Positions 901-47,983 of a DNA stretch of 64,000 nucleotides are shown in pieces. Position numbers and translations under genes: made by a program. The DNA is from Eledone cirrhosa. Taxonomy: Eukaryota. The notes below the pieces were generated by a model that was given only the letters and a program-made list of their open reading frames with translations, was not told the DNA's origin and did no database searches. Location of the stretch: assembly GCA_964016885.1 (NCBI GenBank), contig OZ024741.1, forward strand, positions 158,038,001 to 158,102,000, written 5' to 3'. Position 1 is the first letter of the stretch. Every line of letters starts with the position of its first letter.

Positions 901-1486
901 TCCAACAATGGGTGTTTGATAAAAATGCCAAGATAATAAGAAAGTAGAAGAATAAAAAGAACACAGTGAAGTGAAATAAAAGAGTGAGGATGATAATAAG
1001 TTATCTTAGCAATTTTTAATGATCCAAAATATTTTCGGATTTTCCATCCTCAGATTTTCCATCAAGCAGAGAGAAAACTTGATAATGGATGGAAAATCCC
1101 AAAATATTTTGGATCATTAAAAATTGCTAAGGTAACTTCCTCACACTTTTATTTCATTTCTCTGTGTTCTTTTTATTCTTCTACTTTCTTGTTACCTTGG
1201 CATTTTTACCAAACATGCATTATTGGACTTCCAGATAACCAAACTTATTTTTTTATTTGTTTTTAGATCTTATATTCCACAATGCTTCAAGCAAACTACA
1301 ACACTATATCTTCCAATTCTAACCCCCCCCCCCCTTCCCCTCAATCTAACTTATTTCTCATTCTTTCTTCTGATGAAGGACTAGCGTCCGAAACGTTAAG
1401 ACCTTCCTTCCTGCTATATCACGCGTTAACCTAATATATCCCTTCCATATACTGTACCGATTGTGTTGTTATTTCTGTTTATCTTT

Positions 1487-5640: not shown

Positions 5641-5934
5641 TTAAAATGGCTAACTGAACTTTTTTTCCATTTCTTCCTTTTCTCACTCATTCTATTTCTT
5701 TTATTTCTCATTCTATCCTCTGATGAATATTTATTGTCCGAAACATTAAGACTCTTTTCCTACTATATCAAGTGTTAAACTAATATATACCTTCATTGTA
5801 CTGTATCACTTTGCTGTGTTGTTTTATCTATATATATATATCATTATCATAGTCATTGGCTTATATCCACTTTCTTTGCTTTCCCTGCTATCTATCCATC
5901 TATCTCTCTCCATATATATATAAATATATATGTG

Positions 5935-23043: not shown

Positions 23044-23529
23044 GGGGTAACAGATTATTGTTATAGGTAGACCACATAGGTGTAGTCCAGTTAGGGTACT
23101 CCGAGTAGTGGATGATATCAACGCTTGGCTAAGTTTGACTCAACAAGGCGTTTCCATAGTGATGCTGCGAGTACGCGGTGATTTCTATGTTGTTAACACT
23201 TGGAGTAATGATAAATCAGAAAAGAAGAGTGACACGGTTTGCTATACAAAAAAGGTTTTTAATCTCATTGCTGACAATTGTTGCTCTGAACTGGTAGGTC
23301 TAGAGATCACTACCCACTTATTTTCACGTTATTCGATCACCAATACATAGTTGTAACCAGTCACTTCATCAGAGCTTGTGATAATGAAAGGAATATACAG
23401 GCATGGCTTCTATATATAGTAATTCAATCAGAACAATAACAACAATACTAACAATGCTAGCAATAAATTATTTGAAATAATCACATCAATCTAAGTAAGA
23501 AACATATATATATATATGTGTGTTTTAGG

Positions 23530-23920
23530 CATACGTTAAGACGGGCGTCTGGGAAAGTGAAAGTAAATTATTTGACAACAGAGAATTTTTTTTCTTTTTT
23601 TTTTTTTACAATGAAAGTTACGATACACACGCAATTGTATGGATTTCTTAATATATATATATGTGTGGGTGTGTATATGTGTGTATATATATGTGTGTCT
23701 GTATGTATATATATATGTGTGTTTGTATATATATATATATGTGTTTGTGTCATCATCATCGTTTAACGTCTATCTAAAGAAAAAATAATCACACACGCAA
23801 TACTAATTAACACCATATATATATATATATATATATATGGTGTTAATTAGTATTGCGTGTGTGATTATTTTTTCTTTAGATAGACGTTAAACGATGATGA
23901 TGACACAATACTAATTAACA

Positions 23921-23960
<40 letters not shown>

Positions 23961-24236
23961 TGTTAATTAGTATTGCGTGTGTGATTATTTTTTCTTTAGA
24001 TAGACGTTAAACGATGATGATGACACAAATACATATATATATACAAACACACATATATATATACATACTGACACACATATATATACACACATATACACAC
24101 CCACACATATATATATATTAAGAAATCCATACAATTGCGTGTGTATCGTAACTTTCACTATAAAAAAAAATAAAAAAAAATTCTCTGTTGTCAAATAATT
24201 TACTTTCACTTTCCCAGACGCCCGTCTTAACGTATG
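23530..24236. repeat. Large inverted duplication with (TA)n centre
   Basis: Arms ~23530-23815 and 23959-24236, with an internal partial duplication at 23839-23922. Confidence 0.85.
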
Positions 24237-24240
24237 TCAT

Positions 24241-24636
24241 CTGTGGATAGCTGAGAGATAGAGTCCTATCGGATGCCAGTTGCTAATCGCTTTACCGTGT
24301 CGGTTGTCACAAACAGTTATGACCGGCACGGGCTGGTGTTTGGATTCTGTCGATCGATTGGTTATTGATTAGGCGATACCCGCTGATGAAGCCGCATAAG
24401 CTGATTGTGCATTGTTGCATAATATATGCCGACAGATGGTGCAGTGCACCTTACTGCTGCATTAGTGCGGCAGAAACTCAAGTCCGGGAACCTTATAGGC
24501 ACCCGTTTTACGTGTGTTGTGTTGAGGCAAATAACTATGTGTATACTCTGGTAATGTATCTTACATTGCCCATTGAGTGTGCTGAGATACAACCAGTACT
24601 GGCATTGATAAATATGCTGGGTCCGTCAACCCTTAT
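24241..24636 (+). ncRNA. Highly structured retrozyme-like RNA with type I hammerhead (24379-24488)
   Basis: cccg-CTGATGA-a-gccgcat...gtgcggc-a-GAAA-CTCAAG-T-C-cggg (GUC triplet). Flanking long G-U-containing stems. Ends in (TA)n. Confidence 0.8.
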
Positions 24637-24658
24637 TATATATATATATAAAGACATG

Positions 24659-24733
24659 GGTCATTTAGTTCAATGGCACAGAGCGCTCAGCCGGATTTTG
24701 AGAGGTACAGAGTTCGATTCTCTGTAGTGGCTG
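24659..24733 (+). pseudogene. tRNA-like sequence (tRNA pseudogene or SINE head)
   Basis: Cloverleaf stems GGTCATT/AGTGGCT, GTTC/GAGC, CTCAG/TTGAG and CAGAG/CTCTG with TTCGATT loop. Non-canonical anticodon loop CCGGATT and one extra base before the 3' acceptor strand. Confidence 0.55.
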
Positions 24734-25099: not shown

Positions 25100-25170
25100 T
25101 CTCACTTTGGTGTAATGGTAGAGGAGCTGTCTGGCATGAGCATGTGTGGGTTTGATTCCCACAGGTGAGG
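25100..25170 (+). pseudogene. Degenerate tRNA-like sequence
   Basis: A-box tggtgtaatggta, T-arm gtgggtttgattcccac, acceptor ctcact/ggtgag. Confidence 0.4.
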
Positions 25171-28302: not shown

Positions 28303-28903
28303 ATAATCTGAGTTTTTCGAATATTAATAATATTCAATTCGTTTGCAATTATACAAACAAGCTTCAATTTTATAGCCATGTCAGTAGAATGAACCCTTCA
28401 TTCTTGCTCTTGTGTCGAAAAACTCAGATTACATTTATTGTATTCAGTCATGTAGAGCAAAATTTTCTTTTTTATTTGAATTTGGCAAAGCCGGCCATTT
28501 ATCGCTCGTATACAGGAAACTGACTGGCCAGTCTGCTGATATGCAAATCTGGCTGATCAGTGGATCTGCTAATATACAGATCTGACTGATCAGCCAGTCT
28601 GCTAGTATGCAAATCAGGCTGATCAGTCACTGTGTATTTTTGAAAATAGCATATATTCTCACTAGTTCTGACAGTTTGGCAGGTGAACAGTGAGCTGTAC
28701 TGATGAAGGGTGATACCCAGAAACATTAGTGTCTGCAGTTCTGTTAGCATGCCAACACAAGAGCAAGAATGAAGGGTTCATTTTACTGACATGGCTATAA
28801 AATTGAGGCTTGTTTGCATAATTGCAAACGAATTGAATGTTATTATTAATATTCGAAAAACTCAGATTACATTTATTGTATTCAGCCATGTAGAGCGAAA
28901 TTT

Positions 28904-28909
<6 letters not shown>
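28303..28909 (+). mobile_element. Non-coding HHR element: inverted segment + partial tandem + 438-nt monomer
   Basis: Direct repeats start at 28415 and 28853. 28303-28415 is the reverse complement of ~28754-28870. (TA)n flanks. Confidence 0.8.
28693..28740 (+). ncRNA. Type I hammerhead ribozyme
   Basis: agctgta-CTGATGA-a-GGGT(gat)ACCC-a-GAAA-CATTAGTG-T-C-tgcagtt: 7-bp stem I, GUC triplet. Confidence 0.85.
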
Positions 28910-28968
<59 letters not shown>

Positions 28969-28989
28969 ATATATACAAAAACACCACAT

Positions 28990-30422
28990 ATATATATACA
29001 TGTATAGGGGAGCAGTCAGCAAAGTTAGGATTAGCAATGAGTATAGCGAGGAATTTAGCGTACAGGCTGGGGTCCACCAGGGCTCTGTTCTTAGCCCCCT
29101 CCTGTTCATCATAGTCCTGCAGGCAATAACGGAGGAGTTTAAGACCGGATGCCCATGGGAACTCCTGTATGCTGATGACCTCGCACTCATAGCTGAATCT
29201 ATGGTAGAACTAGAGAATAAATTCCAAACCTGGAAGCAGGGACTAGAAAGAAAGGGTCTCAAAGTCAACATGACAAAGACTCAGGTCCTTGTAAGTAGAC
29301 GAGAAAACAGAACCCAGATCCCCTCAGGGAAATGGCCTTGCTCAGTATGTAGGAAAGGTGTAGGTAGGAACTCCATTCTCTGCCCCAAATGCAAACAATG
29401 GGTACACAAGAGATGTAGTGGGATCTCAGGAAGCTTAATTAAGAATGTAGGATTCACATGCAGCAGCTGTGCTGAAACAGTAAGCAGCAAACAGCCACAG
29501 GAAACAAGTACCACCAATCTCTGGGAGGGCCCTGTAGAAACAGTAGACAGCTTCTGCTACCTAGGTGACCAAATTAGCAACAGAGGTGGGTGTTCAGAAA
29601 GTACAATAACTAGGGTAAGAACGGGATGGAAGAAGTTTAGGGAACTACTACCACTGCTAGCTGCAAAAGGCTTCTCCCTCAGAATGAAAGGCAGACTGTA
29701 TGATGCGTGTATCCGAACAGCGATGTTGCATGGTAGTGAGACCTGGGCGCTGAAGGTGGAAGACTTACGTAGATTAGAGAGAAACGAAGCCTGCATACTC
29801 CGATGGATGTGTAACAGTAATATACGTGAACGACAAAGCATAAATGAATTGAGAGAGAGACTGAGCATAAGAGGAATCAAATGCTGTGTGCAGGAGAGGC
29901 GGTTGCGCTGGTATGGACATGTGATGCGTATGAAGGATGACAGCTGCAGAGCACTAGAAGTCGATGGAAACCGCGGAGTGGGGAGACCCAAGATGACCTG
30001 GGATGAGGTGATAAAAGCCGACCTTACCCAATTACACCTCTCAAAGACAATGACACACGACCGTGACTTCTGGCATCACGCAGTAATACAGAGTACCCGA
30101 CCTCCCATGGGTACATGCTGAAGCATATAAACAATATGCCCCCACACCCCCCACCGCAAGGTGGTCGTGGAGGTGCCACGGCAAAAAAGCACCCAGCCCA
30201 CACTGTAAAGTGGACGTGTAGGAGCCACGAAAAAGCACCCAGCACTCACTGTAAATGAGGTTGGTGTTAGGAAGGGCATCCAGCTGTAGAAATCAAGCCA
30301 GATCAGTTCCTGTATGAGCAAGGCATGGTCAGCCGACCAGACACTGCACACAACAGGACAACCCGTCTAACCCATGCTAGCGTGGAAGAACGGACGTAAA
30401 ACGGTGATGATGATGATGATGA
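28990..30422 (+). mobile_element. RTE LINE, 5'-truncated, open RT C-terminal ORF (28964-30121)
   Basis: GVHQGSVLSPLLF and LLYADD motifs, PHD-like Cys-rich insert, (GAT)n tail. Confidence 0.9.
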
Positions 30423-34321: not shown

Positions 34322-37300
34322 ATAATAATAATGAAATTATTGTGTACAGTGCTCAGGTGCACTACAACTCGTTAAAGGTGCATGCATAATACATAGAATA
34401 ATACACAAATGTCAGGGAAGTGAATAGTGTATGAGTCATGATATACATGTGTGTATGTGTATGGAGGGGGAACATTAGGTGTAGTGTTGGCGAATCTCGG
34501 GAAGCATGGAGGCCTTGAAGGATGCAGTGTCTCGACAGCTAACAGCCGATGCAGGTAGTTTGTTCCATACTTCAGCAACTCTGAGCATGAAAAAATGTTT
34601 CCGAAAGTCATGGGAGCTGTGCCATTTTCTGACTTTGTGGGCATGCCCACATATGTTAGACACATGGAAATCAAAAAGGTACTCAGGGTTGTTGTTGGCA
34701 AGATGGTTAACAATTTTGTGGGTGTTTACCAAGTCAGTTGCCAGGAGTCGGAGCTTCAATGTATCCATGCCCAGGGAAGCAAGGCGCTCAGAGTATGGTA
34801 GATGCCTGATGGAGGGTATTCGCTTGGTTGCACGTCTCTGAACAGTTTCCAGGCGGTCAATGTTCTGAGCAAAATAGGGGTTCCAGACTGGTGATGCAAA
34901 ATCTAAGTGTGGCCGCACCATAGCCATGTACTGCCTTAAATAGATAGCTGGAGAGCGGCTGACAAAGGTCTTGCTGAGTGATGCTAAGACACCCTCGGCC
35001 CTCTAGACAATTTTAGAGACGTGCTTCGTCCAATGCAAATCGCTGCTGACCGTAATGCCCAGGTCACATTCACAAGAAGACTTCTTGATATTAGTGCTGT
35101 GGAGGGAGTCTGTGGACGCTGAGTTTTTACTCCCAAAATGCATGGTGGTGCACTTGTCCACAGCTAACTTGAGTTGCCAGTCTGAGATCCATTGTTGCAT
35201 TGTGTCCAGGTCAGACTGCAAGCAAGATCTATAGTGTGAAGGATCTGTCCTTTTTATCTCAAGGTACAGCTTGATGTCATCTGCGTACTTTAGTACTGTG
35301 GCATTCTTTAAGTTGGCATCTATGTCATTAATATATGCCACAAACAAAAGGGGGCCAAGAACAGATCCCTGTGGTACACCAGATGACATCTCATATGGTG
35401 AGGAATGCTGTCCCAGAACCGTGACTACCTCTTTTCGGCTGAGAATGAAGGATTCAACCAGTTAAAAAGATCATCCTTCACACCCATTGCAGAGAGTTTT
35501 GCCATAAGCCTTTTGTGTGGCACAGAATTCAAAGCTTTCGCAAAGTCAAGGTAAACAACATCCACCCATGAGCCGCCATCAGTGATCCGGGTGATGTCTT
35601 CAAGAAACTCGATAAGTTGATCACAGCAGCTGGAGTTGGGGATAAATCCAAATTGTGAGGGCCGGATAAGACTGTGGGAGTTCCAGAAGTTCCAAAGTGT
35701 TTCTCTGACACAGGATTCCATCAGTTTGGCAATGCAACTAGTAAGACTGACTGGACGATAGTCCACAGGTGATGTGCGGTCACCCTTTTTGAACAGAGGA
35801 ATGACACTGGCAGTTTTCCACTGTTCTGGAGTAGCACCGTTGTTCAGACAGAATTGGAAGAAGCGTGATAACTGGTGCAGAAGGAGGTACCCACCACGTT
35901 TAAGAAGCAGGTACATAACACCATCAAGACCAGGAGAGGCATGGTTGCGTTTATTTTTTAGGTGACGTCGCAGAATTGCAGGTGCAAATTCCATGGTTGT
36001 AATAGAATCCGGTGTCATAGGTGGTGGAGATGGTACACTCTGGTCTTCAATAGTGAAAATGTCTGCATAGCATTCAGCAATGAGCTCTGCGCATTCCTTG
36101 GGGTTGTCAGTAACATTAATGTCTGATTTGTGCAGTTTGTACTCACGTTCAGCATTGCGACATTCTTTTCTGGCAAGACAGACTGCTGCAGTCTCCCAAA
36201 TTGCACTTTTGGGATGTTTTTTCCACTTACGTGGCACCGATGCTGCACATGCTGTCCATATTGAGCTCAGGATGTTCTGGAGTACAGTGTTGACATCTCC
36301 AGAGTCGTAGAACTTAACCCAGTTTGGCCGTTGAAACTCGGTGCAGTAACAGTTTCAGTCTGCTTTATTCCAGTCAAAGTAAGCAGTTTGGAGATGGTTG
36401 TGGTTCTTGTTACTGCCCATGAGGGATAGATTGGCAATGATCATAGCATGATCAGAGTCACCTAAAGGTTCCTCAGCAGTAACACTAATGACCGTTTCAG
36501 GAGTAGTGGTGAAGAGTAGGTCCAAAGTGTTGTCACCTCTTGTTGGGGAGGTGACTACTTGGGACCAATTCGAGTCCAGCACTAGCTCAAGGAAATCATT
36601 TGCACTTGGCGGCCAACGAAAGGTTTCCCAGTCAATCTCAGGGTGATTGAAGTCTCCTGCAATGAAAACATAAGTGGCTGTTTTCCTGGCAGCAGCTCTG
36701 AGGATATCACGAAGTTGAGTGTCCTGAAGGTAATTTGGAGGACGGTAAACGACTCCAAGTAGCAGTGTTGACATGGGCATACGTATATTGCAGAAAAAAA
36801 CTTCCTGCTGTGATTGGTTCAAATCAACACAACGAATTGCCGACAAATTTGACCGAACGTAGACCATTACACCACCACCACCACGATTAATGCGGTCTTT
36901 ACGAAACAAGTTGTAGCCAGTTATGCTGAAAACCCTATCACAGAGTAAGGGATGTGCCCAAGTTTCCGTGACTGTAATGAAGTCAGGGTTGATACTTTTG
37001 ACGTAGGAGTCAAAAAGATGAATCTTATTGCATAGACTACGTGCATTCAAGGACAACAATTTGTACCTTGATTCCAGTATATGATTATGTGCAGGGGATG
37101 GCAGTTTGTTCTGATTTATTTTCCCAGAGTTTTTTCAGTTTCTTTATTGTCAGTTGTTGTGGGTACAGTGTTTTCAGACCAGCTGGTATCTCTTTTCCAT
37201 GTTTCACCAGCCTTAACAAACTTCCATATCTGCCCATCATCACGTAGGCTGAAGCTTTCGTGTTCTGCTGAGCTGCGGTTTAAGGAAGCTGCAGCACGCA

Positions 37301-38056: not shown

Positions 38057-38229
38057 AGTGTGTGTGTGTGTGTGTGTGTGTGAATTTATGAGTGTGTAAA
38101 AGGGAGGAAGGGGAATAGTGTAAAAAAAAATGATCATCATCATCATCATCACCATCTTCTTCATCAACATCATCATCATCATCATTATCTTTGTCATGAT
38201 CATCACTGTCTTAATATTCTGTTAAGGGA

Positions 38230-39305
38230 CAGTGTGGCACTGGGGATATAGGATGGTAAAATATAGCAATGAGGAGATAGGTTGGTAAAATATGGCACTT
38301 CAAAGATAGAGTGCTGCACTTTGGCACTTCAGAGCTAGGTTGGCACAGTATGGCACTGCAGAGCTAGGGTGTCACACTATGGCACTGGGAAGCTTAAGTG
38401 ACACAATATGGAAATATGGAGCTACAGTGGAGCAGTATGACGATGGTGACATAAGGCACTTTGAAGCTAAGGAGGCCACACTATGGCACTGCGGGGCTAG
38501 GGAGGCACATTATGACACTGGGTGGTTAGAATTTCGCAGTATGACAATGGGCAGATAGCGTGGCAATATACGGCACTTCGGAGCTAGGGTGCGGCACTTC
38601 GGAGCTAGGGTTCCGCACTATGGCACTGCGTACTAAGGAGGCATACTATGGAACTGGGAAGTTTGGGTGACACAGTATCGAAATATGGCGCTAGGCTGAC
38701 ATACTCTGGCAATGGTGAGATAGGGTGGAAAAATATGGCACTTTGAAGCTAGGGTGCCGCACTATGGCACTGCGTAGCTAGGGTGGCACTGGAAAGTTTA
38801 GTTACACAGTATGGAAATATGGCACTAGGATGTTGCAGTATGGCAATGGGAAGATAGGTTGGGAAAATACGACAATTCGGAGCTTGGTTGTCGCACTATG
38901 GCACTGCGGTGATAGGGTGACATACCATGGCACTAGGAAGTTTGAGTGGCACAATGTGAAAATATGCAACTAGGATGTTGCAGTATGGCAATGAGGACAT
39001 AGGATGGCAAAATACGGCACTTTGGAGCTAGGGTGCCACACTATGGCACTGTGGGACTACGGTGGAACACTATAGAAGTGGGGAGCTTCAGTCGCACAGA
39101 ATGGAAATATGGAGCTAGGGTGATCCCCTATAGCAATGGGGAGATAGTGTAGCAAGATATGGCACTTTGTAGCTAGGGTGCCGCACTATGGCACTGTGGA
39201 GCTAGGGTGATACACTATGGAACTGTAGAGCTTAGTGACACAGTATGGAAATATGGAACTAGGATGTCGCAGTATGGCTATGGGGGGATAGGGTGGCAAA
39301 ATACG
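38230..39305. repeat. Satellite: 29-bp monomers in a 5-mer (~145 bp) higher-order repeat
   Basis: Monomer approximately tatggcactgcggagctagggtggcacac. The same subunit order recurs at ~39010, 39155 and 39299. Confidence 0.85.
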
Positions 39306-43689: not shown

Positions 43690-45815
43690 TTACTTCTGTA
43701 ATCCGTCAAGTAATCCATGATACATTTTTAAAAAAGGCGATAATGGATGGAAAAGCGATGAAACTGTTGGCGGAAAATGTTCATGAATCTTCACTTGAGA
43801 ATGTCGATGGGAAGCTTCAATGCCTGTCAAGGCATTCAAAGATATGCTTATGTCCCATACCTATCTCATCAATGATTAGCAGGTCAGCTTGCTGCATAAG
43901 TTTACCTGTATCATCCCTCTTTGTGAAGAAGCAAGTTGATTCAGCAGTCACATTGAGAGGAATCTTGCACTTGGAATGAAGAGTTCTACCTTTGTGAAGC
44001 AAAGTGGCTGCTATTCCAGATATGGCAGTGGCAAGTGCAATTTTTTTTTTTAGATTGGAGGTAATCCAATAGGATGTTTATGACATAGGCCTTTCCTGTA
44101 CCTGCACTTGGATTCAAGCAGAAAATTCTGCCTTCATTTTCCTTTACAGAGGTGATTACATTTTGAAAAATAACCAGTTGCTCAGGATTCAATGTTGGCA
44201 GAAGTTTATTTATGTTTGCTTGCAGTTGGTGTGTATTGAAAACAGTTTCTGCCATAAGAACCCTGTTGATTTCTGGTATGGCAACAATAGTTGGGTCTGG
44301 CCAAGGAAGTCCGTAGTTGGCATGAATGTCCAAGCCATCATGTTGAAGTTTTTGTTGGATCTTCTGTAGAATAATCGGCACGGTTTGCATGGACATGACT
44401 TGCTCATGACGTTCATGCATGATATCCTCTGCAAGACAATTCTTCCATTTCTCCCAGAACTGCAGAGGGTCATTTGGCATGCTGTACAATAAAATGGTGC
44501 AGAAGACCTCAAGCGCAATGGATGAGGCCTCTTCCATAGCTTTGTCTTTTTCTCCATCTTCATCTAACAGACCAAGTTTCCTGGATGCTTCTTGGAATGT
44601 TGGAAATTCAACTCCTTCAATTTTCCTCAAATCTTTGTATGAAGTTGACCTAGCCTTGTGATGTAGGATCATCTTGAGGTAATATAATTCAGATTGATGT
44701 CTACTGAGAGATACTGTTGGAATACGTCCAAGAGATTCACTCATAAATTGTTGATCACCATCCAGATGTCCCTTTTTTCTTCTTTGCCACTATTTGTTTG
44801 TCCAAGTGAAATGGCAAGGCAACTTTTCAACTGGCGGTTTTCGATGATGTAATGGAAATTTATAGATTCTCCAGAATGCTTCACTGGCTGAGATGTACCG
44901 TGCATTGATATAGGTCTCAATCTCATTTTGGGCATGGATACAATTTCCTTGATCATCCTTAATAGTGAAAGTGATCTTGTCTGATCCTTTAGTGATGTAC
45001 TTATATAAGTACTTAACAGCCTTGACACTGTGGACAACCTCACAATTGATGTGGCACTGATATCTCAATGAGAGGAAAGGGTTGTATGGAACAATCCAAC
45101 GATTATCAACAGTAAATTCTTGACCTTTAAGTTGGATTGTATGGGTGTGACTACCATGCTGTCTATCCCTTCTTCTATACTCCGGAAAGGAATTTTCTGC
45201 AACAAATGTGGATTGTCTGAATGACTTGGGATAACTTTTTGAGCAATGGCGTTGTTGTCCTAGCCCTTCCATACATGAGCACATCATATTAGCTTGTCCA
45301 CATGGGCCATGAATGTTGCAGGATGTGATGATCTTATGCAGAAATGGATTGGTTTCTTTATTAGGAATCTCACAGTACACTACCTGATCAATGGCGTCAG
45401 CAGTTTTGGGCTTGCTATCTTCAGCCATTATCAGCAGAATATGAGCATGAGTGAGGCCTCGTTTTCTGCTACTCTATTGTAGCACAATGAGCCACAACTT
45501 TTCCTAGGACATTTTTTTTCAGTATGTCATCCATGAAGTTGTCATACTTGATCTTGAAGACTCTTGCATAAATATCAGGACGGTCTCTAGGTTCTTCACC
45601 AGGGTGCAAACTATTTTTTATTTCATCCCAGTTAGGGTTAGTTGTTACCGTGATGAAATAAGATGGCTTTCCCATGTGTCGAACCACAGTCATCGAATTC
45701 TGAAAGCACTCACTGTAGAAGCGAGTGGAACCATAGATTGAAGGAGGAAGAACAATTCTCCGGCCTGCACTTGTTTCAGACGCTAGACTGTGCCCATGCT
45801 GGAGTACCACGATTA
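43690..45815 (-). mobile_element. Helitron Rep/helicase pseudogene
   Basis: Rep motifs GKPSYFITVTTNPNW, QKRGLTHAH and VPYNP..HINCE..KYLYKYITKG. PIF1-like motifs AGTGKA and LIIDE. Frameshifts. Confidence 0.9.
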
Positions 45816-46837: not shown

Positions 46838-47875
46838 TTCGCACATGCGCAGTACGGACCGGCCGTCGTGCATGCGCAGAACAGACCAGCATTCGCGAAT
46901 GAGCACTTCAGACCAGCCTTCGTGCATGCGCAGTACGGACCAGCCTTCGCGCATGCACAAATCGGACCAGTATTTTCGTGCATGCGCATTTCAGACTAGC
47001 CTTCTCACATGCGCAGTACGGACCAGCCTTCGCGCATGCGCTGTTCGGACCAGCATTTGCGCATGTGCACTTCGGACCAGCCTTCGTGCATGCGCACTTC
47101 GGACCACCCTTCATGCATGCGCAGTACAGACCAGCCTTCGCGCATTTGCAGTATGGACCAGCCTTGGCACATGCGCACTTCGAACCAGCCTTCGCGCATG
47201 TGCAGTACGGACCAGCCTTCGCGCATGCCCACTACGGGCCAGCCTTTGCGCATGCGCATTACGGGCCAGCCTTCGCGCATGCGCATTATGGACCAGCCTT
47301 CGCGCATACGCACTTCTGACCAGCCTTCGCGCATGCACACTTCGCACCAGCCTTCACGCATGCGCACTTCGGACCAACCTTCGCGCATACGCAGTACGGA
47401 CCAGACTTCGCTTATTCATACTTCGGACCAGCCTTAGCGCATGCGCCCTTCGGACCAGCTTTCGCGCATGCGCACTACGAACCAGCCTTCTCACATGCGC
47501 ACCTCGGACCAACCTTCGCGCATGCGCACTTTGGACCATCCTTCACGCATGCACACTTTGGACCAGCCTTCGCGCATGCGCAGTACGAACCAGCCTTCGC
47601 GCATGCGTACTTCGGCCCAGTCTTCGCTATTGCACACTTCGGACCAGTTTTCGCGCATGCACACTACGGACCAGCCTTCGCACATGTGCACTTCCGACAT
47701 ACCTTCGCGCATGTGCACTATGGACCAGCCTTCACGCATGCGGAGTACGGACAAGCTTTCGAGCATGCGCAGTACGGACCAGCTCTCGCGCATGCGCTGT
47801 TCGGACCAGCCTTCGCGCATGCGCATTTTGGCCCAGCCTTCGCGCAAGCGCATTTCAGTCCAGTCTTCGCGCGCG
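46838..47875. repeat. 27-bp CpG-rich minisatellite (~38 units) containing GCGCATGCGC
   Basis: Unit ccagccttcgcgcatgcgcagtacgga. Its 9-aa repeat translation AHAQYGPAF confirms period 27. Confidence 0.9.
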
Positions 47876-47983
47876 CACATACACACACGCACGCACACAC
47901 ACACATATACACATACACATACGCGTCAGCGTGTTAAAAAAATCCGAGTGTTTATAAAAGAGAGAAAATGTGTGAGTTGTGTG

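What the first reader, a model, noticed from the sequence alone, without database searches (positions are those of the whole stretch)
24241..24636. ~400-nt viroid/retrozyme-like structured RNA built around a hammerhead
Upstream of the HHR (24379-24488) lies a nested rod: gatagagtcc/ggattctgtc (10 bp), atgccag/ctggtgt and ccgtgtcggttgt/atgaccggcacgg (13 bp). Downstream are ggtaatgta/tacattgcc and tatactc/gagtgtg. The non-Watson-Crick positions are G-U pairs that only work on the + strand, which points to selection on RNA structure rather than a DNA palindrome. HHR stem II carries a ~70-nt insertion and there is no credible ORF. This resembles circular retrozyme RNAs (inference).
Basis: partly seen in the sequence, partly recalled or inferred. 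Interest (0 to 1): 0.8.

Follow-up and report, generated by a model that had tools for sequence, protein, structure and literature searches.

The report
Penelope-hitchhiking hammerhead retroelement, 844-nt unit
This is a cut-short copy of an 844-base non-coding mobile repeat, present in hundreds of copies in TA microsatellites, that carries a hammerhead ribozyme motif with an unusual branched arm and likely borrows Penelope-type retrotransposon enzymes to copy itself, probably in part from an RNA circle.

Summary
The helices and the type I hammerhead motif are really there (fold z -5.1 on +, -2.2 on -), but the '400-nt RNA' is only the 3' half of a dispersed ~844-nt non-coding repeat: 657 exact core matches in the genome against 5 for the control. 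Copies share one 3' end 155 nt past the predicted cut, have ragged 5' ends, sit in (TA)n, keep a GT-AG intron unspliced (76 of 76) and often run 1-1.8 units head to tail. These are Penelope-like-element (PLE) marks. An older subfamily, ~70% identical, keeps the unit, the rod and the 67-nt branched stem II, with three compensatory pair changes. In longer-than-unit copies the junction is nearly constant and the two repeated halves group by locus, so one template was read twice, as proposed for circular PLE RNA. Against endless rolling: full dimers are almost absent and second passes stop near the rod. This copy has one ribozyme and a broken stem III palindrome, so it is probably dead. No RNA data; no autonomous partner identified. 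New variant of a known kind (PLE-derived retrozyme).

The parts
24239..24639 (+). 5'-truncated copy (unit positions 438-838) of the ~844-nt repeat; 12 differences from the subfamily A consensus
24239..24370 (+). ~130-nt rod (unit 437-569); inner 13-bp stem 24295-24307/24319-24331; outer arm weakened in this copy
   Evidence: two double-sided changes between subfamilies in the inner stem
24379..24488 (+). type I hammerhead motif: stem I, CUGAUGA, A.A at the base of stem II, GAAA, 2-bp stem III, GUC; predicted cut after 24484
   Evidence: GUC in young and GUA in old subfamilies
24391..24471 (+). stem II (7 bp) closing a 67-nt insert that folds into two hairpins; 24430 A>C breaks one pair in this copy
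   Evidence: G-C to A-U change in 10 of 10 old-subfamily rows
24476..24483 (+). stem III 8-mer: palindromic in the family (self-duplex -10.7 kcal/mol), broken by 24480 G>A here (-1.6)
24485..24505 (+). hairpin predicted to sequester the 3' strand of stem I; an equivalent hairpin of different sequence is predicted in the old subfamily
24485..24639 (+). 155-nt tail from the predicted cut to the fixed 3' end; ends in the (TAT)n tract that is the inferred start of reverse transcription
24640..24651 (.). (TA)n run, the inferred target site
   Evidence: 24 of 25 unbiased copies have a 3' TA run
24386..24727 (+). open frame from the ATG inside the ribozyme core (113 codons here, 93 in the family); no sign of protein-level constraint
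23528..24238 (.). unrelated foldback (MITE-like) element abutting the 5' end of the copy; context, not part of the unit

Best explanation
The stretch is a 5'-truncated, probably inactive copy of an ~844-nt non-coding repeat family that is likely copied into (TA)n microsatellites by the reverse transcriptase and GIY-YIG endonuclease of a Penelope-like element, likely in part from a circular RNA that its two hammerheads would release. Shown: hundreds of dispersed copies, one fixed 3' end, ragged 5' ends, TA flanks, a retained GT-AG intron, 1-1.8-unit partial tandems with a nearly constant junction, repeated halves that group by locus, conserved and covarying folds. Inferred cycle: (1) a source copy of about 1.35 units is transcribed from a start near unit 500-545; (2) each ribozyme is held off by local hairpins and has only a 2-bp stem III, so cleavage would need the two ribozymes to pair through the stem III palindrome; (3) double cleavage and ligation would give an ~844-nt circle with one inert ribozyme; (4) the PLE enzyme nicks (TA)n and primes inside the RNA at the UAU tract 155 nt past the cut; (5) it falls off early (most copies, including this one) or passes the junction and reads the same sequence again, which rebuilds two matching repeats; uncleaved linear precursor would also be copied and would give the pile-up of 5' ends at 500-545. 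My odds: PLE-mobilised non-autonomous element about 0.85; a circle among the templates about 0.6 given that.
For: Copy number: 657 exact matches to a 15-nt core pattern against 5 for the reversed control; 544 against 0 for the 3' end; 40 scored hits at 95-100% out of 2857 candidates. TA run at the 3' side in 24 of 25 and within 35 nt of the 5' end in 20 of 24 unbiased copies. Intron-like segment of ~91 nt: 76 distinct unspliced instances, 73 ending in AG, 0 spliced joins in 241 loci; intron retention is a PLE mark (10.1101/2021.04.23.441226, passages). The genome holds RT plus GIY-YIG ORFs; in 7 such loci a TA run follows a hammerhead-like motif at 115-203 nt, against 155 nt here; internal priming downstream of the ribozyme and AT-rich cutting were shown for an anole PLE (PMC11167929, main text). 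Junction: (TAT)4 in 37 of 47 distinct junctions of all subfamilies, while free 3' ends carry 1-18 repeats with mode 2 (30 junction loci had been picked by an exact (TAT)4 pattern, but the loci picked by the splice-site pattern also show 3-5, mostly 4). Halves of one locus share 13 rare variants against 1.5 expected (23 loci). In a tree of 22 two-half loci, 12 loci are sister pairs and the upstream halves do not cluster (19 changes, shuffled mean 15). Circular unit fold z -9.7 on + against -3.9 on - (consensus, 20 shuffles). The circle model for PLEs is proposed in PMC4209133 (discussion read).
Against: No pile-up of 5' ends at the cut: 2 of 27 loci on C1-C3 start at unit 684-685, 19 at a TATA microhomology 7-9 nt further on (my count; control window 17 loci). 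The young subfamily lost the G10.1-C11.1 pair (A before GAAA in 74 of 116 copies) and still spread, and ribozyme mutants did not reduce insertion by the anole PLE in vitro (PMC11167929). Only 2 of the 12 sister pairs have strong support, and L118's halves fall apart. No autonomous element shares sequence with the unit: 0 of 49 GIY-YIG loci, 0 of 60 splice-site loci run into an ORF. Covariation is three events between two subfamilies; tool shuffles are mixed (score 10/500, cells 12/500, pairs 471/500).
Confidence: 0.55

Rival explanations
1. Same PLE-dependent element, but templates are linear only. A terminally redundant 1.35-unit transcript is copied, and the two halves are kept alike by strand transfer between homologous ends or by gene conversion; the hammerhead cleaves rarely or serves as a protein-binding fold.
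For: Pile-up of second-pass ends at unit 500-545 and near absence of full dimers; no excess of ends at the cut; internal deletions and jumps in some copies (L032, L045, L092); unprocessed RNA was the main substrate in vitro (PMC11167929).
Against: Core, cleavage triplet (GUC or GUA) and stem III palindrome are kept across ~30% divergence; within-locus distances of 3-16% are not shorter than expected from age, which argues against frequent conversion after insertion; 5 of 61 second passes run past unit 436; PLE RT is not known to carry RNase H for strand transfer (recalled).
Confidence: 0.3
2. A SINE-like element moved by a LINE that primes on a (TAT)n tail, or a DNA-level repeat (MITE, Helitron, satellite) that happens to contain a ribozyme motif.
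For: Fixed 3' end with a short (TAT)n tail and 5' truncation also fit LINE-type priming; tRNA-like repeats in the same loci end in an ATT tail; no PLE partner found.
Against: Templated head-to-tail junction with internal priming, retained intron, inverted 5' pieces (L201, L202) and the PLE-type ribozyme are not LINE/SINE marks; no terminal inverted repeats and no arrays.
Confidence: 0.1
3. One reading: a ~400-nt viroid-like RNA, circular and joined at the GUC site, made from this locus.
For: Strand-specific fold and a hammerhead motif.
Against: The 400-nt span is a truncation product; 5' ends of sister copies are spread over the whole unit; one ribozyme cannot release a unit-length circle; the palindrome is broken here.
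Confidence: 0.03

Closest known systems
Non-LTR retrozymes of animals (PMC7229834; bioRxiv 10.64898/2026.07.22.740005)
   Same: Non-coding repeat with a type I hammerhead, short palindromic stem III, strongly self-paired unit, co-occurrence with PLEs.
   Different: Known ones are tandem arrays of ~170-400-nt units in invertebrates (51-972 bp consensus range in the preprint). This one is dispersed, never more than ~1.8 units bar one odd locus, 844 nt, TA-targeted, intron-bearing, with a branched 67-nt stem II insert and a ribozyme predicted to be blocked by self-pairing, which PMC7229834 describes for plant retrozymes and viroids rather than most animal ones.
Penelope-like elements with pLTR hammerheads (PMC4209133; PMC11167929)
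   Same: Partial tandem that forms pseudo-LTRs, fixed 3' end downstream of the ribozyme, AT-rich target, 5' truncation and inversion, retained intron, extra nucleotide after A9, palindromic stem III, ATG at the start of stem II.
   Different: No RT or endonuclease ORF; no sequence match to any PLE examined; stem II is a three-way junction, not 4-8 bp; the young subfamily lacks the G10.1-C11.1 pair.
Plant LTR retrozymes (as described in the introduction of 10.64898/2026.07.22.740005 and the abstract listing of PMC5680766)
   Same: Repeat-body-repeat layout with one ribozyme per repeat and a 600-1000-nt ribozyme-to-ribozyme unit.
   Different: Type I not type III ribozyme; no true LTR ends; ragged 5' ends; inferred PLE rather than Ty3/Gypsy helper. 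PBS and PPT were not searched for.

Membership tests
Type I hammerhead ribozyme | Core CUGANGA, GAAA and NUH between three stems, stem I open | tested here: met
Type I hammerhead ribozyme | G10.1-C11.1 pair next to the core | tested here: not met
   A.A here and in 74 of 116 copies; C in 34 of 116, which allows G-C only with a bulge. The same A.A arrangement occurs in a short ribozyme in PLE locus L163. U.U is known to be tolerated (PMC3088659, passage).
Type I hammerhead ribozyme | Match to an Rfam hammerhead model | tested here: not met
   the 67-nt insert may be the cause (inference)
Type I hammerhead ribozyme | Loop I-loop II tertiary contact | not tested
   loop II is replaced by a branched insert; no search for a substitute contact was made
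Type I hammerhead ribozyme | Self-cleavage | not testable with these tools
   genomic proxy inconclusive
Non-LTR retrozyme | Type I hammerhead in a non-coding repeat unit | tested here: met
Non-LTR retrozyme | Tandem arrays with two or more consecutive complete units | tested here: not met
   0 pairs at unit spacing among the first 100 of 187 matches; 1 of 61 second passes complete
Non-LTR retrozyme | Two ribozyme regions in one copy, so that a monomer can be released | tested here: met
   22 of 25 loci chosen for it carry two copies of 170 nt or more of the ribozyme-tail region; not true of the window copy
Non-LTR retrozyme | Abundant linear and circular monomer RNA | not testable with these tools
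   no RNA holder listed
Penelope-like element, non-autonomous | Partial tandem forming pseudo-LTRs, 5' truncation, fixed 3' end past the ribozyme | tested here: met
Penelope-like element, non-autonomous | AT-rich or microsatellite target | tested here: met
   24 of 25, 20 of 24
Penelope-like element, non-autonomous | Intron retained in genomic copies | tested here: met
   76 unspliced, 73 with AG, 0 spliced; that it is spliced in RNA is untested
Penelope-like element, non-autonomous | Shared terminal sequence with an autonomous PLE | tested here: inconclusive
   0 of 49 GIY-YIG loci out of 10,597 candidates; 0 of 60 loci out of 187; one direct 5' join to PLE terminal-repeat sequence in L035
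Penelope-like element, autonomous | RT plus GIY-YIG ORF | tested here: not met
Viroid or viroid-like RNA | Non-genomic RNA replicon with ribozymes on one or both strands | tested here: not met
   hundreds of chromosomal, 5'-truncated DNA copies; RNA-to-RNA copying itself not testable

The most novel reading that the evidence does not exclude
A long-lived, protein-free replicon that cycles through an 844-nt intron-retaining RNA circle, gated by a dimer-only hammerhead whose stem II carries a conserved two-hairpin module (a docking site for the PLE protein or a switch). Its genomic copies would be a direct record that PLE reverse transcriptase reads a circle more than once, the model proposed in 2014 for how pseudo-LTRs arise: the animal counterpart of plant LTR retrozymes, run on Penelope machinery.
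Probability: 0.35. Interest if true: 0.75.

Novelty: new variant of a known kind. Interest (0 to 1): 0.52.

Why it matters
How PLEs build their pseudo-LTRs, and what their hammerheads do, is open: a circle was proposed (PMC4209133), while the one in vitro study found cleavage dispensable (PMC11167929). This family is small, non-coding, has hundreds of copies spanning ~30% divergence, and shows that the repeated part is rebuilt from one template. That makes the question testable with one Northern blot and one reverse-transcription assay. It also adds a natural hammerhead with a branched stem II that Rfam misses, so such motifs may be undercounted. The window copy itself is an ordinary dead insertion.

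Tried and rejected
Rfam at two thresholds: no hammerhead; only AT-repeat noise and two tRNA-like hits. Sequencing runs: no RNA holder listed, which says nothing on expression. Laying contigs and RAD reads showed only pieces of the family in runs labelled organisms A-E; contig depths are not copy numbers, so the apparent excess over unit 538-807 in run X7 is not used. Autonomous partner: not found by BLAST or profile in 49 GIY-YIG loci, nor in 60 splice-site loci; L203, L205, L211 and L214 break off early without an ORF; PLE protein remnants near 24 of 241 loci are explained by a shared TA target or by Gypsy RT cross-hits. The short ORF: no longer homologue, no Pfam hit below E 0.1, frame not kept. 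Lower mutation counts in the core are rejected because many loci were picked by an exact core pattern. Cut-site pile-up test inconclusive. A TA-joined pattern at unit 540 gave only 9 matches, so solo 300-nt copies are not shown to be abundant in this assembly. The second Fisher test used rough numbers and is not used. Three of 25 loci were dropped from the tree for lack of a second half; four duplicate loci and segments under 85% identity were dropped. Earlier findings by place and by sequence: none. Paper searches listed no description of this family or of a branched stem II in a PLE ribozyme; Repbase and Dfam were not available, supplements were not read, and PMC5785218 on PLE ribozyme variants was not held, so prior annotation cannot be excluded.

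Full report
Observation. The + strand folds at z -5.08 and the - strand at z -2.23. A type I hammerhead motif lies at 24379-24488 with the predicted cut after 24484. Rfam finds no hammerhead at either threshold. The window belongs to a 3.0-Gb, microsatellite-rich genome; it looks like an animal genome (inference from size and repeat content).

It is a repeat. The 400 nt match 40 scored places at 95-100% among 2857 candidates. A 15-nt core pattern has 657 exact matches against 5 for the control, and the 3' end 544 against 0. Other copies extend further 5' and some run into a second copy of the 3' part. The unit is 838 nt plus a 6-nt junction. The window copy is unit 438-838 with 12 differences from the consensus; one breaks the stem III palindrome and one breaks a pair in the stem II insert. 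A foldback element with TA-flanked relatives abuts its 5' end.

Insertion pattern. Copies share a 3' end 155 nt past the predicted cut and have ragged 5' ends. A TA run follows in 24 of 25 unbiased copies and precedes in 20 of 24. Of 26 independent copies picked only by their 3' end, 15 pass the cut site, 10 pass unit 538 and 6 reach the junction (my count). An intron-like segment of about 91 nt follows the junction: 76 distinct instances, 73 ending in AG, none spliced in 241 loci. Inverted 5' pieces occur (L201, L202). Partial tandems, inverted pieces, microsatellite targets and intron retention are described for PLEs (10.1101/2021.04.23.441226, passages), and priming inside the RNA downstream of the ribozyme on AT-rich DNA was shown for one (PMC11167929, main text). 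The genome has many RT plus GIY-YIG ORFs. In seven of these loci a TA run follows a hammerhead-like motif, picked by eye, at 115-203 nt.

Conservation. A second search found an older subfamily, 66-79% identical to the young consensus, with the same unit, junction and splice signals; intermediate copies fill the range 68-98% and form a ladder. Both consensuses fold alike: a ~130-nt rod, a three-way stem II, and hairpins that take up both strands of stem I. Between subfamilies three pairs change on both sides (two in the rod, one in stem II) and seven on one side with pairing kept; two pairs at the edge of the middle rod helix and five of nine in the 3' inner hairpin are broken. On 18 rows 86.8% of cells pair against 29-44% for slid controls; shuffle tests are mixed. 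This is three independent events, so it is support, not proof. The cleavage triplet is GUC or GUA and the palindrome is intact in 82 of 116 copies not picked by the core pattern. The active fold costs about 6 kcal/mol as a monomer, while the palindrome gives -10.7 as a duplex. That fits dimer-dependent cleavage as described for animal and PLE ribozymes (PMC4209133, results and discussion; PMC6765202, passages).

One template read twice. If longer-than-unit copies came from a fixed two-repeat master, upstream and downstream halves would drift into two groups. They do not. Halves of one locus share 38 variants against 8.7 expected, and 13 rare ones against 1.5 (23 loci). In the tree, 12 of 22 loci form sister pairs, though only 2 with strong support, and the upstream label needs 19 changes against a shuffled mean of 15. 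The junction has four TAT repeats in 37 of 47 distinct cases while free 3' ends vary from 1 to 18 (30 junction loci were picked by an exact pattern, and the independently picked loci show mostly four), so it is inherited, not re-made at each insertion. A circle explains this most simply and was proposed for PLEs (PMC4209133) and shown as an RNA form for animal retrozymes (PMC7229834, results and discussion).

What does not fit a plain rolling circle. Only 1 of 61 second passes is complete (L032, an irregular copy) against 6 of 26 first passes (p 0.0025), none of the first 100 of 187 splice-site matches lie one unit apart, and 10 of 16 second passes at risk end at unit 500-545 against at most 5 of 36 in first passes. 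I read this as a transcript start, as in PLE terminal repeats, with uncleaved precursor also serving as template; that is inference. There is no clear excess of 5' ends at the cut. The young subfamily has A.A in place of the G10.1-C11.1 pair and spread anyway. A linear template with strand transfer therefore remains a serious rival.

Partner. None found: 0 of 49 GIY-YIG loci resemble the unit and 0 of 60 splice-site loci continue into an ORF. These are small samples of 10,597 candidates and 187 matches. In L035 the 5' end joins directly to terminal-repeat sequence resembling the L151 family, a single hint.

Placement. It works like a retrozyme moved by PLE enzymes, the relation argued in 10.64898/2026.07.22.740005 (abstract to discussion read). 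It fails the tandem-array test for non-LTR retrozymes and lacks the ORF of an autonomous PLE, so I file it as a non-autonomous PLE-type element with retrozyme-like RNA: a new variant of a known kind. PMC7761336 and PMC3088659 were seen as passages only. Seven paper searches listed no account of this family; repeat libraries and supplements were not seen.

Verdict. The locus is a probably dead copy; the family is a good test case for the circle model. Interest 0.52.

Noticed in passing
window 23528-24238: Foldback MITE-like element with long terminal inverted repeats; relatives are flanked by TA; 477 candidates in the genome.
   Followed up: partly
window 24660-24732 and 25101-25170: Two tRNA-like segments below Rfam's gathering score, probably SINE heads.
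   Followed up: no
window 1370-1409 (+), 5720-5759 (+), 28700-28733 (+): Three further short hammerhead-like motifs; the 28700 type also occurs in PLE loci L131 and L163 and has the same A.A at the base of stem II.
   Followed up: partly
L152:6200 and 6659: Hammerhead-like motif with a ~50-nt stem II region, twice, 459 nt apart: possibly another long-stem-II family.
   Followed up: no
L035, 5' end of the element: Element joins without a TA run to same-strand PLE terminal-repeat sequence just before that repeat's ribozyme-like motif, with an inverted copy further up; possible template switch.
   Followed up: partly
L078, L243 (also L207, L213, L230): A short repeat ending in an ATT tail sits in or at the (TAT)n junction of the unit.
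   Followed up: no
L010, L231, L061 and others: Some 3' ends carry up to 18 TAT repeats though the template has four: slippage at priming or later expansion.
   Followed up: no
window 24344-24391 (unit 543-590): Block almost unchanged between subfamilies while its pairing partner changes; contains CCAAT-like words on the - strand; possible promoter or protein site.
   Followed up: no
L151-L169: Several PLE families with long open RT plus GIY-YIG frames (up to 938 and 1096 codons), some ending in TA runs.
   Followed up: partly
window 46838-47949 and 38189-39238: Tandem arrays of 27-nt and 29-nt units.
   Followed up: no
window 43989-45473 (-), 28850-30118 (+), 34478-37134 (-): PIF1-like helicase fragment (Helitron-like) and LINE-type RT fragments.
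   Followed up: no
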